A DNA stretch of 64,000 nucleotides from contig NC_087249.1 in NCBI RefSeq assembly GCF_037042905.1, positions 49,104,001 through 49,168,000 on the forward strand, written 5' to 3'. This DNA comes from Lytechinus pictus. Lineage: Eukaryota. Below are positions 24,701 through 57,700 of this stretch, piece by piece. Position 1 is the stretch's first letter. Each line of letters begins with the position of its first letter. A program made the position numbers.

Positions 24701-27700
24701 GGTGAAAATCATTTACCATAAGAAAGGATCACCAGTCATTCTTGAAGTCGCTCTTAACTTACGAACGACTTTATGAAACACCCACCAGGTGATTGAAAAC
24801 CGCAATAAATTCTTCTGCTACTTTCCTAAACCTTTTTTTTCCCTCTGTAGGTACAACTTTGTTTACAACCTTAACCCAACACTCGTCTCCTATACTAAAT
24901 GTAGCAAAGTTGGTGATGTCCACACCACTGGGCTGTTAAAAGATTGGAACTCAAAATTTAGATATAACTCTAAAATCAGAACACCTGATTTTAGAGTTAT
25001 GACATAAGTAGCAATTACCTTTTGCCTATATAGAGTTTTCTAAAGGAATTAGGAGACTCTCCTCAGACAATATAAGGTTGCCACCAGAGTATATTTCTGA
25101 AATGCAGCTTTTTCTGAGCCGCCCTTAAAATGTTTAAATTTTTGAGATAAAATGTTTTAACAGCGCAACAAAGCTACATGCATGTAAATGAATATGGTAG
25201 CACACAACATTCTACATGATTTAAAAAAAAAAGTGTTGTTTGAATAATTTGGTGTGCACGTGTGCTGGGAACTACTTGAATCTACACATCAGTCAAATGA
25301 AAAATGCTAAATATCAGTCAGTCTCCGTTGTGATGATGTGAAAATAAATCTTTCTGCAACCACTAAAAAGTGGAAAGTCAGCAAAGTGCTACCAAATCTG
25401 CAAGCTTGCTATTCTGTCCAAGTACATCAAAGAATATTGTCCATCAAATTATCTAACATTTTTTCAGTTTTCATCTCACGATACTAGTAGATGTAGATGC
25501 CTTGTGGCATTCGTTTTACAGTAGTATCATCACCGCATGGCAAAAATTATCCAGCTGATGAAAAGGCGAGTTTTAACCTAAACATCAACAAGAATTGTTT
25601 GACACCGGCTACTGGCTACCTTGTCTGGTCCAGAGAAGTAAATGACAAGCAATGCATGAGAACATTGTCTGAATGGAACCGTCACATGGTGTGAAATCAC
25701 CAGGCGTTGCGTACAATGTTTGGAAATGGGGAGAGGTGACAGATCCAAGATTGAAGGGGGCCAACTAACTTTTAAAACAGTTTTCTATTGTCTTTATCAA
25801 CAACTTTCACATTTTGTTGATAGGACCTCCTCCCCCAACTGGATCTGCTACCAATAGACTGTTATGTAGGCATGAGAAGATTTGGGGAGATTAGCAGGGC
25901 CCTTAATGCAGGAGTGTCAAGCACACCAGGAAACATTATTGCTCCAAGTCTGGCCTTCTAGCAAAGAGGGAAAAGGACATTTGAAGAGTGAAGGCAGTCT
26001 TGTACGCCAAGGCTAGGTCTCCCTGCAGATCAGAGGAAAAGGGACATTTAATGTGTGAAGATATTGTTGCACAGATAGTCTCAATCTTCCTGCGAAGGGA
26101 TAAAGGAATATCTGATGAGCGAAGGAAGTGTTGCATGGATAGTCCATGTCTTCAAGCAGATTAGGGGAAGGGACATTTGATGAACAAAGGCAGTCTGGCT
26201 CGGAACTCCATCTGCTTTAATTTCATATAATCAGTTTCTCCTTGAGTTGTTTGTTCTTGACCACCGTGCCATGCTGCTTGCAGAAGAGACGATCGTCCGC
26301 GATATCCAGGTTCCACAGGGTCAAGGTCCTGCTGCACTCGCTGCACTTCTGGCACGTCCGGTGGAAGACCCGACCTTCGAACTTGCTCATCTCGTTGGGG
26401 TAGGCGGACTTCTCGCACACCATGCAACAGTCGATCATGGGCTGGAGGGGCGGCCGCGAGGACGACGAGGGATTAGTGGACAGTCTGGAGGGTCCCGTTG
26501 TGGGTGCCGTTGACCCTTTGAGTTTGTTGGAACTTGTTGATGAGGGCTTTGACGGAACCTATACAACAGAGAGAGTAGGAAAAATCAATAGATAATCAGT
26601 ATTTTACCTAAAATAAAATGAAATTACATTATCACCATAACTACCAAGTAACATTTCATACAAAAATAATGATAAAAATAACAACAGAGCCAATTACAAA
26701 ATAAATACAGAAGGTTTGAACAAGAAAGAGAAATTGATAATGAAAGATTTATTTCATACTTAAATAACAGATCATCTTAGATTACTGGAAGAAGTTTGGT
26801 TACTGCTTAATGTACCCACACAATATTAATTGGAAGATAACAATAGCATTATTGTAATAACAGCAATAATTTTGCACCTAAGAATAGATAATGTTTAGAT
26901 ACAGATTGCCATAAAAAATTTCATTATCAATATTTAGATCATTATTATTACCAGCAACTGAAATCATTTCACAAAAACCTAACCTTGAACCCCCCCCCAT
27001 ATCCTCCTGCCCAGTGCCTCAAAGGGCTAAAACCTCTCAATATTCCATAGTTCAGTTAATCTATCTCACATAATGCAAACAAGATTATCAAAATTACACA
27101 TTCCATTAACAAAACATGCCTTCACATGCTCAAACATGCCTACCACACTCCATTAGTGAAAATTTGGAAAGGAACTACTTAATGATGTTGTCATGGTTAA
27201 TTTCAGACTACATCAATAAGGAAACAAAGTATGACAGGTGCCTTATTCAATTTTCATTTAGGGGGATGCAGATACAATTCTAAACAATCTAATGCCTACT
27301 AGGACTGACTAGTCCTTGTACTAAACCGCTGGCAATCAAATAGACGGATTACTCAGTGGGTTAAACACTTTGCCATCCAGATCAGATATCATTACATTGC
27401 ATCACAATATTGATACTGTAAATGGACAAACATACATGATGGTATATGACTCTAAAGCATCATTTATTTTCTGTTCCTGTTTCATCAGAAGAAAAGGTAT
27501 ATTATATGCTGTGTTAATAAGTTGTTCCATTTCCTCTTTTCAGTTAGTTTTAGTGTAGCAGCTGTTCTTTGCATGCCATGAATAGAATGGATCACAACTT
27601 CCCATCGCTATTCAACTAATTAAAGATAATTATCAGAAGCCTTATTTGGTAAGCTTTTAATATTAAACATACTAATTACTATCATCATTATTTTTCTTCA

Positions 27701-54700: not shown

Positions 54701-57700
54701 ACAGTTATATGGACAAAACAGTTATATGGCTGGTATGCAAATGAGGAGACTATGACGTCATCCACTCGCTATTGCTTTTGTATTTCATTATATGACATAT
54801 GAAATATTCTAATTTTCTCCTCATTGTCAAGTGATACAATAATTAATTCCTCCCTGAACATGTGGAATTAGCATTGTTTAATACTATATGGTTCAGTCAA
54901 GTTGGTCCTTATTGTCAAATCTATAAAAATTAAATATTGTATAATTCAAACAATAAAAAACAAAAGAAATAGTGAGTGATGGACATCATCGACTGACTCA
55001 CCTAGTTGTGCATATCACTGTTTTGTGAAAAATAAGCGAAACTTTAAGATGTCATAACTTTCTGATTTTACATCCGATTTTGATGATATTTTCAGCACTA
55101 TATGCTAGTTTGATTTTTCTCTATTTATTCAAGTCAGCACTTTCCTGGGGTGGACTTGACCTTTAAAACTATGCATCGCCTCAAAGTTAAAATCATATTC
55201 CACAGGCAAATATTGATGTTTCTATTTTCCAAAAATAGTTACTATGGCAATGAGATAAACCATCAATAAAGATGAGTTTATATAATGGTTCACCCGACAA
55301 ATTTTCATTTATTACCAACGTGAAGGAATATTGTGTAATGTGAGCTCACTCTACTTGCAGCTTTGTACTTGGGGGGAGGGGGGGTCCTGTTAAGTGTGAG
55401 AATGAATAGCCTGATTTTCCAGTTTCTTCTTAACCATGTATATTCCTAAACACAAACTCTACCCTTCTGAGATGATATGTAACATAACTATTTGCCTTTG
55501 AAGTCAGAGGGAGTTGGGATCAACATGCTTAAGGTGCAATAAATTGAAACTTGGCAGAAAACAAATAAGAAAATCTATTCAATTATTTACATGTAGTTTG
55601 TAAATAACATCTTTTGTTCTTATTCCAGTTGGAAGATGGCCAATATAGATTAACATGAAAGATGCATCCGTCTAAACCAAGAGAGGCCAAGACAATGGCA
55701 AGGTGACCCAATTTGATTTCATCATCTTTTTCATTTCAAATTATTTGTAAAAGCTCCTTTAAGTATTTTCCTTTGTAAAGGAAATATTTTGTTTGGTTGT
55801 ACCCCTTTTTCATCCCATGAATTTAATCAAGGATTAAAGTAACAATTGTACTGAGTAGCGAGTCCCAGTGAAACTTGGCTACTCTTCAATCCCTTAAGTG
55901 CAGCATAACTCTAATCATTTATGTTCAAGGTGTCTATCAACATCGGGACTGGTGAATTGATAGACACTAGACCTAAAATGAGATGCATAAGGACAGCTTG
56001 AAGACACTTAATTTAGATCAGGATCCCCAAATTTGCATAGGTACACCAAATTCATCACCTGCACTCTCGGCACCTACATGTCAATATTTGGGACAGCTCT
56101 CACAAATAGTGTGATTGTTTGCATCAACCTCAATTATGGAAAGCTGATGGCAACATAATCATTTGTCTACTAGCATATGCACTTATCATATTGTAAAGTA
56201 GAAACATCATGTTGATGTACCAAAACAATGGCAATAAAAAATGTAATTTTATATTCCGAGGAGCTGATTTGAAATTTGGAAATTGAGGACAGCTTTGAAA
56301 AAGCTGTATTTTAGAAATATGACAATGTTGGCAACCTCATATGCCCACTGTTGAGTCCATGGTTTATGTAGAATTCCTGTATAAATTACACTTATTTTAC
56401 CGTGTATATAAAAAAATGTCCAAATGCTGGTGCACGCTTTTGTCACAGTGCGCCAAATTGACGTGGTTATCCACGCTATTTTATTCATGAGTCCTGTTTT
56501 GAATTAATGAGTCCACTCTTCAAACAGTGGACTCATGAATAAAATAGCGCAGCTAACCATGGTAACAGGCGTCAATTTGGCGCACAGTGACAAAAGCGTG
56601 CATCAGCATTGCACATTTTTATTTACACACGCGCCTGATACGCACTAAATTAAGCGTATTTATACAGGATTTGCATAAACCATGGATTCAACCGTGGGTT
56701 TTCAAAACCACCTTTGTCAATTCGGGCCATATTGTCTGAAGACAGTCTCCTAATCCCTGTGGAGAAATCTTCCAAGGCAAAAGAAGGCTACCACTTATGC
56801 CAAAGCTAAAAAGTCGTTTTTTTTTTCTTTCTGAGCTATCCACAAATTTTGAGATTGTCATTGTGAAATTCATTGTCATTCTAGATGATGATGTCACTGG
56901 TTTTCCATATACGAAATTGAAATTGATCTAATCCTTCACACTCCTACTTAGGGTGGGGCCGTGATGTTTAATAATAAAACAAATAATGCAGCTTACCTGT
57001 TTTTAATCTCTTCATGTCGGCTGTGACATTTTGGCTCTCCTTGACGCCGATGCTCGTAAAGCTCTTCTGTAGCGAGGAATGAATATGGGTTACAGGCATG
57101 AGAACTACCTAACTTTTCCCAAACAGAGAAAACTAAAGAACTTTTCCGACATGGAAGATTCGGACAAGAAAGAGAGGGAGGGTTTTCCTATGATCTCTCT
57201 ATCCTAACAGACTAATTCTACAAATTTCATTCCCGTAAATAAAAACTACCCCCTAAACCCACCTTCGTCCCAACCTACACCCTAAATTAGACTCCTAATA
57301 GGTTATCTAAGAATAGAGGCCGCCACCGCTTTGCGTAGTTGAGGAGAGAGGGAGAGAGAGAGAGGAGAGATGAGTTGATAATTGCTCCTAGCTTCGCCCA
57401 AACAAGATGATGCAGTTTCAAAGAAGCAGACGGAAGTACGAATTTGGACGTTATTCCAAGCATGGAAGAACCGTTGAATATCAACAAGGCATATGTAGAG
57501 CAAATGAAGTTAGGAAGAAGTCCAAAGACAGAGATAACGGAAGATCTGATGCTATGAAAATCCACAGGTTAAATCACTCAGAAATAATAAATGGAATTAT
57601 TCCAACAAGAATCCATTCCAGGATGATGATCTTCACAGTGTACGGTAACAGACTGATGGTGTCACAAGTAAAGTTTCCAAAATAGATGCAGCAGCGTGAA

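What the first reader, a model, noticed from the sequence alone, without database searches (positions are those of the whole stretch)
26223..57099. Unusual domain architecture: CRACD/DUF4592-like motif + acidic IDR + repeated helical motifs + C-terminal LIM
The assembled ~890-905-aa protein joins an N-terminal motif resembling that of CRACD/KIAA1211 capping-protein inhibitors with an EPLIN/MICAL-class LIM domain. As far as I recall, vertebrate CRACD-family proteins lack LIM domains. Inference: an uncharacterised actin scaffold coupling capping-protein regulation, filament binding and LIM-mediated localisation.
Basis: partly seen in the sequence, partly recalled or inferred. Interest (0 to 1): 0.65.

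Follow-up and report, generated by a model that had tools for sequence, protein, structure and literature searches.

The report
Sea-urchin CRACD-like gene ending in LIM
This is a real but unstudied sea-urchin gene that joins a CRACD-type region to a zinc-binding LIM domain, and it can swap that LIM domain for an older short tail by reading its last exon in a different frame.

Summary
The window is Lytechinus pictus DNA, not human. Coordinates 26223-57099 (minus strand) are the coding span of RefSeq models XP_063955206.1 (888 aa) and XP_063955205.1 (905 aa). All exon borders are GT-AG.

Exon 2 matches the end of Pfam DUF4592, the CRACD/KIAA1211 family, below threshold (23.3 bits, cut-off 27). 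The last exon is a complete LIM domain (36.7 bits, cut-off 22.9).

Models with the same architecture exist in five echinoids and one hemichordate. Annelid, oyster and brachiopod relatives have no LIM.

Three corrections:
- The "N-terminal" motif is internal. About 343 further residues, including most of DUF4592, lie upstream of the window.
- The motif keeps only 2 of 7 fixed positions of the capping-protein (CPI) consensus, so CapZ regulation is unsupported.
- The LIM lacks the accessory motifs of the EPLIN, CRP and MICAL classes.

New: a 64-nt longer exon 5 shifts the last exon into another frame. That frame gives a 27-aa tail which resembles the C-terminal tail of the protostome relatives and appears to be under purifying selection.

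I file it as a new variant of a known kind, of moderate interest.

The parts
56997..57099 (-). Exon 1 of the public models. The model ATG is at 57099. The acceptor-defined exon starts at 57066 (70 nt) and is the form used by the long isoforms of other urchins.
   Evidence: tblastn, 100% over aa 1-34. The sequence shows a pyrimidine tract and cag just before 57066, and a donor G|gtaagc after 56997.
53323..53456 (-). Exon 2 (134 nt), the C-terminal end of the DUF4592-like region, holding the motif AAKHRISVAPSNRRPSKK.
   Evidence: Pfam PF15262 at 23.3 bits, E 9.6e-5, profile positions 91-124 of 124. 100% identical to the L. pictus and L. variegatus proteins. Borders. Aligns to the oyster DUF4592 protein.
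45240..46425 (-). Exon 3 (1186 nt). An internal alternative donor after 46332 gives a 94-nt short form that drops a 364-aa acidic disordered stretch.
   Evidence: The short form is used in P0001, P0004 and P0031. Conserved islands shared with Diadema setosum.
38131..38899 (-). Exon 4 (769 nt), acidic and Pro/Thr-rich. It holds motif 1 (RRLSVAASKALFEAKI) and the first half of motif 2 (VSLKDRIS).
   Evidence: tblastn, 100%. Borders. Composition. Motif conservation among echinoids.
35628..35830 (-). Exon 5. The donor after 35692 (139 nt, phase 0) leads to the LIM frame. The donor after 35628 (203 nt, phase 1) leads to the alternative frame of the last exon.
   Evidence: Both donors are GT. Lengths and phases. 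Both forms are used by public isoforms: X1/X2 against X3.
33296..33346 (-). Optional 51-nt cassette exon (17 aa), present in isoform X1 only.
   Evidence: The peptide was located in the window and has AG/GT borders. P0025 compared with P0002.
26223..26558 (-). Last exon read in frame A: a Ser/Thr/Pro-rich linker, then the LIM domain, then 15 residues and TGA at 26225-26223.
   Evidence: Pfam LIM at 36.7 bits. tblastn, 100%. Sequence read.
26271..26426 (-). LIM domain proper (residues 45-96 of the exon translation), with all eight zinc ligands: CxxC-x17-HxxC-xxCxxC-x17-CxxH.
   Evidence: Pfam stretch 45-96. Ligand spacing read from the translation. 42% identical over 69 aa to the Glandiceps LIM, E 6e-22. 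Solved-structure matches CRP1, EPLIN and others.
26473..26558 (-). The doubly coding first 86 nt of the last exon. Frame B gives the 27-aa tail SVKALINKFQQTQRVNGTHNGTLQTVH and TAA at 26475-26473.
   Evidence: Used by L. pictus X3 and by L. variegatus X2 and X3. Substitution pattern. Motif uniqueness.

Best explanation
Shown:
- The window carries the 3' two-thirds of the Lytechinus pictus copy of a DUF4592 (CRACD/KIAA1211-like) gene.
- The encoded protein is mostly low-complexity and highly charged.
- The gene makes many predicted isoforms: with or without a 364-aa acidic block (alternative donor inside exon 3), with or without a 17-aa cassette, and, in S. purpuratus, with or without the two exons that carry the DUF4592 tail.
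- It has two alternative C-termini made from the same last exon. If exon 5 ends at 35692, the last exon is read as linker plus a complete single LIM domain. If exon 5 runs 64 nt further, the reading frame shifts and the same first 86 nt give a 27-aa tail that stops before the LIM.

Inferred:
- That tail is the ancestral C-terminus of the family, because oyster and annelid relatives end in a very similar motif.
- The LIM was added in the common ancestor of echinoderms and hemichordates.
- The splice-phase switch lets urchins keep both ends.

Inferred more weakly (about 0.3): the protein is an actin-associated scaffold, as its vertebrate namesake CRACD is reported to be, and the LIM or the tail selects different partners or sites. 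Direct inhibition of capping protein through a CPI-type motif is not supported for the urchin protein.
For: Identity and structure:
- The public model maps at 99.5-100% identity with GT-AG borders and consistent phases.
- LIM and the DUF4592 tail were each found exon by exon.

Family link:
- In long isoforms of three urchin species, DUF4592 covers profile positions 20-124 of 124, at E 3.5e-5 to 9.1e-5.
- The crinoid relative scores 27.9 bits and the oyster relative 37.6 bits, both above the cut-off of 27.
- Pairwise, urchin against oyster gives E 3e-9.
- phmmer of the LIM-less urchin isoform against 1.84 billion representatives gave 13 hits. Five were outside echinoids: annelid 4.9e-10, Saccoglossus 1e-8, crinoid 2.8e-7, Glandiceps 6.1e-7 and Lingula 7.9e-4.

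Conserved architecture:
- LIM is present in 10 of 24 scanned family proteins, all from five echinoids or Glandiceps.
- The urchin and Glandiceps LIMs share 42% identity, including the residues just after the domain.

Frame switch:
- Both donors are canonical.
- The tail frame is used in L. pictus X3 and in L. variegatus X2 and X3, and X3 reaches it by a different upstream exon.
- Across the 28 doubly read codons, the LIM frame differs at 4 residues between the two Lytechinus species. Each difference needs only one base change at the wobble position of the tail frame, and the tail is 27 of 27 identical.
- The pattern V..[LM][VI]..FQ, taken from the oyster and annelid C-termini, occurs once in 127,996 six-frame codon positions of the window, exactly in this tail.
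Against: - All isoforms are computed gene models. I saw no transcript or peptide data.
- The urchin DUF4592 scores (18.5-24.7 bits) are below Pfam's cut-off. D. setosum P0024 and the two Glandiceps proteins gave no DUF4592 hit at E <= 0.1, and Owenia P0009 gave none at E <= 10.
- No search reached a vertebrate CRACD sequence, so the link to the studied protein runs only through the Pfam model and a RefSeq name, 'KIAA1211-like'.
- The tail frame is seen only in the two Lytechinus species. The four Glandiceps isoforms all end in LIM.
- The tail pattern was written after seeing all three tails, so its rarity is overstated.
- Urchin motif 2 (SLKDRISRFQ) resembles the protostome tail about as well, so which one is its true counterpart is open.
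- The crinoid and Saccoglossus models are short (364-498 aa), so absence of LIM there means little.
- No asteroid or holothuroid relative appeared among the 13 hits.
- The CPI consensus is matched at 2 of 7 positions.
Confidence: 0.7

Rival explanations
1. The frame-B tail is splicing or annotation noise. The LIM isoform is the only functional product, and the resemblance of the tail to protostome C-termini is chance.
For: Only predicted models carry it, and only in the two closely related Lytechinus species. The motif pattern was defined post hoc. The four Glandiceps isoforms I read all end in LIM.
Against: All four inferred substitutions in the overlap are silent in frame B and change frame A. 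The 21-aa exon-5 extension plus the tail are identical in both species, while the proteins are about 92% identical elsewhere. Two different splice routes reach the same frame in L. variegatus. The pattern has a single six-frame match in 64 kb. The stop lies in the last exon, so by the general rule for nonsense-mediated decay (established knowledge) the transcript should not be degraded.
Confidence: 0.22
2. One reading: the exon-2 motif binds capping protein (CapZ) like a CPI motif, and the protein couples uncapping with LIM-directed localisation.
For: Family membership. CRACD is reported to bind and inhibit CAPZA/CAPZB, and a mutant lacking its capping-protein-interacting motifs fails to rescue (passages of PMC13631292, and PMC9949038). 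The motif has a His and a Pro at CPI spacing, and protostome relatives come closer to the consensus: 3 of 7 positions in Owenia and Crassostrea, and 4 of 7 in Lingula, which has R-P-K.
Against: Echinoids keep 2 of 7 fixed positions, with Ala and Ser in place of the consensus Arg and Lys. None of 11 family proteins holds L.H.T..RPK or the relaxed form H.[TS]..[RK]P[KR] anywhere. Where CRACD's own motifs lie relative to DUF4592 is unknown to me, because the primary paper (PMC6261439) is not held. S. purpuratus isoform X3 omits these two exons altogether.
Confidence: 0.15
3. The fusion is a gene-model artefact. A CRACD-like gene and a separate small LIM gene lie in tandem and were merged by the annotation pipeline.
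For: The models are computed. The last intron is about 9 kb (35692 to 26558). A Met lies four residues before the first zinc ligand. The L. pictus annotation of this locus is demonstrably imperfect, because it splits off the 5' part as LOC129261315.
Against: The same junction is modelled independently in five echinoids and one hemichordate. The LIM exon starts at a strong acceptor in the right phase. The 44 residues before the LIM are open and conserved among echinoids. No other exon of a LIM gene was found nearby.
Confidence: 0.06
4. The DUF4592 similarity is a composition effect (basic and Ser-rich low complexity). The protein is a lineage-specific LIM protein unrelated to CRACD.
For: Scores are below the cut-off in urchins. 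The ESM Atlas look-alike scores of 0.76-0.77 are in the range that shuffled proteins reach.
Against: Six ordered motifs align from the basic KKKKFK..K.F block to the AAKH..SV.P tail across echinoderm, hemichordate, annelid, mollusc and brachiopod proteins, with invariant columns. Hits span 105 of 124 profile positions in three urchin species. The pairwise E to a protein that passes the cut-off is 3e-9 with composition adjustment.
Confidence: 0.05

Closest known systems
Vertebrate CRACD (KIAA1211/CRAD) and CRACDL (KIAA1211L), Pfam DUF4592
   Same: They share the DUF4592 region, which covers profile positions 20-124 in full-length urchin proteins. RefSeq names the crinoid relative 'KIAA1211-like'. 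The proteins appear largely disordered and rich in charged residues.
   Different: The urchin protein has a C-terminal LIM domain. By my recollection the vertebrate proteins have none, but I did not test this. Urchin scores are below the Pfam cut-off. The CPI consensus is not kept. CapZ binding, the defining activity of CRACD, is untested here.
Protostome DUF4592 proteins (Crassostrea angulata P0036, Owenia fusiformis P0009/P0017, Lingula P0015)
   Same: They have the same ordered N-terminal motifs. The oyster and annelid proteins also end in a ...VLDMVKNFQ... tail like the urchin frame-B tail.
   Different: None has a LIM domain. They carry a PSW/PAW motif that the urchin proteins do not clearly keep. 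Nothing indicates a doubly read exon in them.
EPLIN class of LIM proteins (LIMA1, XIRP2, LIMD2; Koch et al. 2012, PMC3305314)
   Same: Both have a single LIM. The EPLIN LIM (2d8y) is the best single-domain match among solved structures, at 38.8 bits and E 9.6e-9.
   Different: The class is defined by a 22-aa EPLIN motif directly after the LIM. Here only 15 residues follow the LIM, and the alignment to 2d8y stops at query residue 98.
CRP/CSRP class
   Same: CRP1 (1b8t) has the highest total score, 51.8 bits from its two LIM domains. CRP2, MLP and CRIP also match.
   Different: The class has a 15-20-aa glycine-rich motif after each LIM. The urchin tail after the LIM has one Gly in 15 residues, and no second LIM is present.
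Genes that read one exon in two frames (for example CDKN2A p16/ARF and GNAS XL-alpha-s/ALEX; recalled, not looked up)
   Same: One stretch of DNA gives two unrelated peptides that both appear to be maintained.
   Different: Here the switch is a 64-nt difference in the upstream splice donor. It affects only the first 86 nt of the terminal exon and decides whether a whole domain is appended.

Membership tests
LIM domain (Pfam PF00412) | Profile match above the gathering score, with eight zinc ligands in CxxC-x16-23-HxxC-xxCxxC-x16-21-CxxC/H/D spacing | tested here: met
   36.7 bits against a cut-off of 22.9 on exon 6 alone. The ligands read CxxC-x17-HxxC-xxCxxC-x17-CxxH.
DUF4592 / CRACD-KIAA1211 family (Pfam PF15262) | Profile match at or above the gathering score (27 bits) | tested here: inconclusive
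   Exon 2 alone scores 23.3 bits. Urchin long isoforms score 23.3-24.7 bits, E 3.5e-5 to 9.1e-5, over profile positions 20-124 of 124. The L. pictus models score 18.5-18.8 bits. The crinoid P0011 (27.9 bits) and the oyster P0036 (37.6 bits) pass.
DUF4592 / CRACD-KIAA1211 family (Pfam PF15262) | Significant direct similarity to a member that passes the cut-off, across the domain | tested here: met
   P0031 against oyster P0036 gives E 3e-9, residues 259-403 against 86-250. P0001 against crinoid P0011 gives E 2.8e-7 in a search of 1.84 billion proteins. The ordered motifs are visible in alignment A1.
CRACD (functional definition: capping-protein inhibitor) | Binds CAPZA/CAPZB through capping-protein-interacting motifs | not testable with these tools
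Activity is reported for mammalian CRACD only (passages of PMC13631292 and PMC9949038).
CPI-motif proteins (CARMIL, CD2AP, CKIP-1, CapZIP, FAM21 and others) | Consensus LxHxTxxRPK(x)6P | tested here: not met
   2 of 7 fixed positions are kept in all five echinoid proteins, and at most 4 of 7 (Lingula). There is no match to L.H.T..RPK or H.[TS]..[RK]P[KR] in any of the 11 proteins. The consensus comes from PMC5491179.
EPLIN class (Koch et al. 2012) | A 22-aa EPLIN motif directly C-terminal to the LIM | tested here: not met
   Only 15 residues follow the last zinc ligand before the stop. The phmmer alignment to EPLIN 2d8y ends at query residue 98. The motif's own sequence is in a supplement I could not open.
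CRP class (Koch et al. 2012) | A glycine-rich 15-20-aa motif after the LIM | tested here: not met
   The tail GTVVKNKQLKEKLII has one Gly. Class definition.
MICAL and LMO7 classes (Koch et al. 2012) | A CH domain, plus DUF3585 (MICAL) or PDZ (LMO7) | tested here: not met
   Pfam finds only LIM and DUF4592 in the ten LIM-bearing proteins at E <= 0.1 to 1, apart from two weak sub-threshold chance-level hits.

The most novel reading that the evidence does not exclude
The LIM domain was captured by overprinting. In the ancestor of echinoderms and hemichordates, a LIM-coding stretch came to lie just downstream of the old stop codon of a CRACD-like gene. A shifted splice phase let translation run past that stop in another frame. 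Sea urchins still keep both readings of the same 86 nt under selection. They use them as a binary switch between an ancestral tail (VKALINKFQ type) and a LIM module, so one locus makes two scaffolds with different partners. A bolder extension is that this ambulacrarian state reflects an old link between the CRACD and EPLIN-like LIM lineages that chordates resolved into separate genes.
Probability: 0.3. Interest if true: 0.6.

Novelty: new variant of a known kind. Interest (0 to 1): 0.45.

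Why it matters
CRACD is studied only in mammals, as a capping-protein inhibitor and tumour suppressor (abstracts and passages). Nothing I could find treats its invertebrate relatives:
- A search for 'DUF4592' found 0 papers.
- A search for 'KIAA1211' with 'sea urchin' found 1 paper, on chicken granulosa cells, which by its title and abstract start is unrelated.
- A search for 'CRACDL', 'KIAA1211L' and 'LIM domain' found 4 papers holding at least 2 of the 3 terms (3 listed). From their listings, the three listed do not concern this architecture.

These results show three things. 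The family is bilaterian-wide. It has a conserved set of short motifs that could be tested one by one. In one deuterostome branch it gained a LIM domain.

Sea-urchin embryos are a good system for actin work, so the gene gives a tractable entry to what the conserved DUF4592 motifs do.

The frame-switching last exon is a compact natural example of domain gain without loss of the old C-terminus. It is of interest for how multidomain proteins arise.

The public names of these proteins ('FK506-binding protein 5-like', 'neurofilament heavy polypeptide-like', 'DNA ligase 1', 'nucleolar protein dao-5') are misleading and should be replaced.

Tried and rejected
- Word-index searches with the DUF4592 region of the S. 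purpuratus protein (5 hits among 2250 candidates, all echinoid) and with the 12-sequence family alignment (8 hits among 7999 scored; new were an oyster protein and one unnamed record). Neither reached vertebrate CRACD, so no direct comparison with the studied protein was possible.
- ESM Atlas look-alikes for the DUF4592 region (best score 0.76, a cluster in which 24% of members carry PF15262) and for the C-terminal part of the LIM-less isoform (0.77, unrelated names). Both are below the level that shuffled sequences reach, so I treated them as leads only.
- Structure prediction of an ortholog alignment, to test whether the motifs are helical. The tool answered that it was not ready, twice, so helicity stays untested.
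- The primary CRAD paper (PMC6261439) is not held. Later CRACD papers mention a delta-CPI mutant but give no coordinates.
- A complex prediction of the exon-2 peptide with CapZ was not run.
- Rfam over the whole window gave 0 matches.
- Pfam on the ten largest other open frames of the window gave only one weak Ion_trans hit (15.8 bits, cut-off 25), which I judged to be chance.
- tblastn of the first 350 residues of the long isoforms against the window at E <= 50 gave only low-complexity noise and the known exon 1. The upstream exons are therefore outside the window.
- The L. variegatus mini-exon peptide of isoform X3 was not found in the window.
- I considered and rejected a human origin. The window is 99.5-100% identical to L. 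pictus proteins.

Full report
**What the window is.** The window is 29-41% G+C in 2-kb windows. The exon-2 frame is 100% identical to predicted proteins of Lytechinus pictus and L. variegatus. The six pieces of the L. pictus RefSeq protein XP_063955206.1 (P0002, 888 aa, named 'FK506-binding protein 5-like isoform X2') map to the minus strand from 57099 to 26226. Identity is 100% in four pieces and 99.5% in exon 3. Exon 5 shows 83% only because the alignment overruns the donor. I take the window for sea-urchin DNA, not human. Four runs of N between 10890 and 12654 were left as they are.

**How I searched.** Each exon was searched on its own by window reference, and the joined step was left out. 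Full-length comparisons used the public proteins that the searches returned.

**Checking the observation.** All borders are canonical and the phases add up. The exons are:

| Exon | Coordinates (minus strand) | Note |
|---|---|---|
| 1 | 57066-56997 | the public model adds an ATG at 57099 from the intron just upstream |
| 2 | 53456-53323 | DUF4592 tail |
| 3 | 46425-45240 | internal alternative donor after 46332 |
| 4 | 38899-38131 | |
| 5 | 35830-35692 or 35830-35628 | two donors |
| cassette | 33346-33296 | optional |
| 6 | 26558-26223 | LIM |

Pfam on the stop-to-stop frames, one exon at a time, gave:
- LIM on exon 6: 36.7 bits, E 5.2e-9, cut-off 22.9.
- DUF4592 on exon 2: 23.3 bits, E 9.6e-5, cut-off 27, profile positions 91-124 of 124.
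- Nothing on the other four frames at E <= 1.

The optional part of exon 3 is 364 aa with 23% D+E and net charge -44. Exon 4 is 27% D+E with net charge -30. It is in fact a rediscovery of an annotated but uncharacterised gene model.

**The gene is larger than the finding.**
- The L. variegatus, S. purpuratus and Diadema models carry roughly 220-360 further residues in front of the exon-1 peptide.
- In the L. variegatus model these are residues 1-343. They hold a polybasic block (KKKKFK.WKSIKKIFKKKK), an SMSEDSVF block and an SSDDG block.
- With them the DUF4592 match grows to profile positions 20-124 of 124 (P0001, P0004, P0005, P0031: 23.3-24.7 bits, E 3.5e-5 to 9.1e-5).
- None of these residues is encoded in the window (tblastn at E <= 50), so the upstream exons lie beyond position 64000.
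- In L. pictus they are annotated as a separate 351-aa gene, LOC129261315, on the same contig (P0030). That model ends by reading into an intron, while the downstream model starts from an intronic ATG.
- This looks like one gene split by the annotation.

**Family.** phmmer of the LIM-less isoform P0001 against 1.84 billion representatives gave 13 hits at E <= 0.001:
- 4 echinoid proteins.
- 4 short fragments without names.
- 5 from other phyla (names): Owenia fusiformis (annelid, 4.9e-10), Saccoglossus (1e-8), the crinoid Anneissia (2.8e-7, which RefSeq names 'KIAA1211-like'), the hemichordate Glandiceps talaboti (6.1e-7) and Lingula (7.9e-4).

A profile of twelve family members also found a Crassostrea angulata protein (1.9e-28). 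The crinoid (27.9 bits) and the oyster (37.6 bits) pass Pfam's DUF4592 cut-off. The LIM-bearing L. variegatus isoform aligns to the oyster protein with E 3e-9, and the alignment ends in the exon-2 motif. The alignment shows six ordered motifs shared across phyla. I therefore accept DUF4592 membership, with these caveats:
- The urchin scores themselves are below the cut-off.
- Owenia, D. setosum and Glandiceps give no Pfam DUF4592 hit.
- No vertebrate sequence was reached.

**Where the LIM occurs.** I scanned 24 family proteins with Pfam.
- Ten carry LIM: eight from five echinoid species and two from Glandiceps.
- The 14 without LIM are LIM-less isoforms or fragments from Lytechinus (5), a fragment without a name (1), three short crinoid models, one short Saccoglossus model, three Owenia proteins, the oyster protein and a short Lingula protein.
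- The urchin and Glandiceps LIMs are 42% identical over 69 residues (E 6e-22). They share the unusual CQKC and the HG..KNK stretch after the domain. This argues for one acquisition before echinoderms and hemichordates split.

Among solved structures:
- The best total score is CRP1 (51.8 bits, from two domains).
- The best single domain is EPLIN (38.8 bits).
- MICAL1 matches at E 2.2e-4.

By the scheme of Koch et al. 2012 (passages of PMC3305314), the EPLIN class needs a 22-aa motif after the LIM, the CRP class needs a glycine-rich motif, MICAL needs CH and DUF3585, and LMO7 needs CH and PDZ. None is present. Only 15 residues with one Gly follow the LIM, and Pfam finds no other domain. The LIM is therefore of the CRP/EPLIN sequence type but belongs to none of those classes.

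**Capping protein.**
- CRACD is reported to bind and inhibit CAPZA/CAPZB, and a mutant lacking its capping-protein-interacting motifs does not rescue (passages).
- The CPI consensus is LxHxTxxRPK(x)6P (passage of PMC5491179).
- Anchored on the conserved His, the exon-2 motif keeps 2 of 7 fixed positions in all five echinoid proteins. It keeps 2-3 in hemichordates, 3 in the crinoid, Owenia and Crassostrea, and 4 in Lingula.
- Neither the consensus nor a relaxed form occurs anywhere in the 11 proteins examined.
- The primary CRAD paper is not held, so I do not know where CRACD's own motifs lie.
- Capping-protein regulation by the urchin protein is therefore a name-based inference without sequence support.

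**Isoforms and the frame switch.** The public isoforms differ in four ways:
- the acidic block of exon 3;
- the 17-aa cassette;
- in S. purpuratus X3, exons 1 and 2 together (204 nt, in frame), which removes the DUF4592 tail;
- the C-terminus.

With the donor after 35692 (phase 0), the last exon reads as a Ser/Thr/Pro linker plus LIM. With the donor after 35628 (64 nt more, phase 1), it reads SVKALINKFQQTQRVNGTHNGTLQTVH and stops at 26475-26473, before the LIM. L. variegatus reaches the same frame by this route (X2) and by a different small exon (X3).

Three observations suggest the tail is maintained:
1. Between the two Lytechinus species the linker frame differs at 4 of the 28 doubly read residues. 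Each difference needs one base change at the tail frame's wobble position, and the tail is 27 of 27 identical.
2. The 21-aa exon-5 extension is also identical, although the proteins are about 92% identical elsewhere.
3. The oyster and annelid relatives end in ...VLDMVKNFQ..., 13 residues from their C-termini. The pattern V..[LM][VI]..FQ occurs once in 127,996 six-frame codon positions of the window, in this tail.

The pattern was written after seeing the tails, so that figure flatters the case. The first 10-12 linker residues (VPSKPSSTSS) are unchanged from Lytechinus to Diadema, and the rest of the linker drifts. That is what a constraint from the overlapping tail motif would produce. This is inference, because I could not obtain the other genomes' DNA.

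**How it most likely works.**
- Shown: this is a multi-isoform, largely low-complexity DUF4592 protein with a complete LIM or a short tail at its end, chosen by splice phase.
- Inferred: the tail is the ancestral end, the LIM was gained in Ambulacraria, and the two ends recruit different partners.
- Inferred weakly: it has an actin-related scaffold role by analogy with CRACD and with CRP/EPLIN-type LIM proteins.

**Other conserved pieces.**
- The three S-[VL]-x6-F-[EQ] motifs have hydrophobic residues at positions 1, 4/5 and 8 in the second and third copies (the first fits less well), as an amphipathic helix would.
- The acidic block holds short islands conserved with Diadema (SELPFPGVA, GLGPMVLP..PP, VDLPDP..LG.N.FGVETI). 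These could be binding motifs.

**Novelty.** I found no paper on DUF4592 (0 hits), none on KIAA1211 in sea urchins (1 unrelated hit), and none linking CRACDL/KIAA1211L with a LIM domain (4 papers held the terms, 3 listed, none relevant by listing). The 2012 LIM survey did not include echinoderms in its main data set (passages), and its supplementary tables were not available to me. I rate this a new variant of a known kind. It is moderately interesting, mainly for the conserved ambulacrarian architecture and the doubly read last exon.

Noticed in passing
window 26473-26558 (-), with the exon-5 donors at 35692 and 35628: The first 86 nt of the LIM exon are read in two frames by public isoforms: a linker leading into the LIM, or a 27-aa tail with its own stop. 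All four differences between the Lytechinus species fall on wobble positions of the tail frame.
   Followed up: yes
window 56997-57099 and beyond 64000: The L. pictus annotation seems to split one gene in two. LOC129261315 (351 aa) matches the first ~343 residues of the L. variegatus protein and ends by reading into an intron. The downstream model starts at an intronic ATG 33 nt before a good acceptor.
   Followed up: partly
window 53323-57066 (exons 1 and 2): S. purpuratus isoform X3 (P0034) skips the equivalents of both exons (204 nt, in frame), giving a protein without the DUF4592 tail motif.
   Followed up: partly
window 45240-46332 (-): Inside the acidic block, three short islands are conserved with Diadema setosum (SELPFPGVA; GLGPMVLP..PP; DL.VDLPDP..LG.N.FGVETI), while the rest drifts. 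They are candidate binding motifs of unknown partner.
   Followed up: partly
Owenia P0009/P0017, Glandiceps P0012 and Crassostrea P0036 (not in the window): A further shared motif (VPSWVAMAK.R.K in the annelid and the hemichordate, and a PAW variant in the oyster) lies in the C-terminal third. The aligner places it over urchin ETKAEADTKL, so it may be lost or degenerate in urchins.
   Followed up: no
window 15756-16764: A tandem repeat of 208 bp x 4.9 copies with 97% matches, in the region downstream of the gene.
   Followed up: no
window 27940-28340: A tandem repeat of 163 bp x 2.5 copies with 84% matches, inside the last intron.
   Followed up: no
window 58366-63985: Nine inverted-repeat pairs of 40-141 nt, 82-93% complementary (for example 61676-61816 with 62608-62748), in the intron upstream of exon 1. 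They are probably interspersed repeats. Two open frames there share a peptide.
   Followed up: no
window 10890-12654: Four runs of N (343, 196, 149 and 615 nt), flanked by trinucleotide repeats. They were left untouched.
   Followed up: no
window 9369-9713 (-): A weak Pfam Ion_trans hit (15.8 bits, E 0.0083, cut-off 25) on an open frame, probably chance.
   Followed up: no
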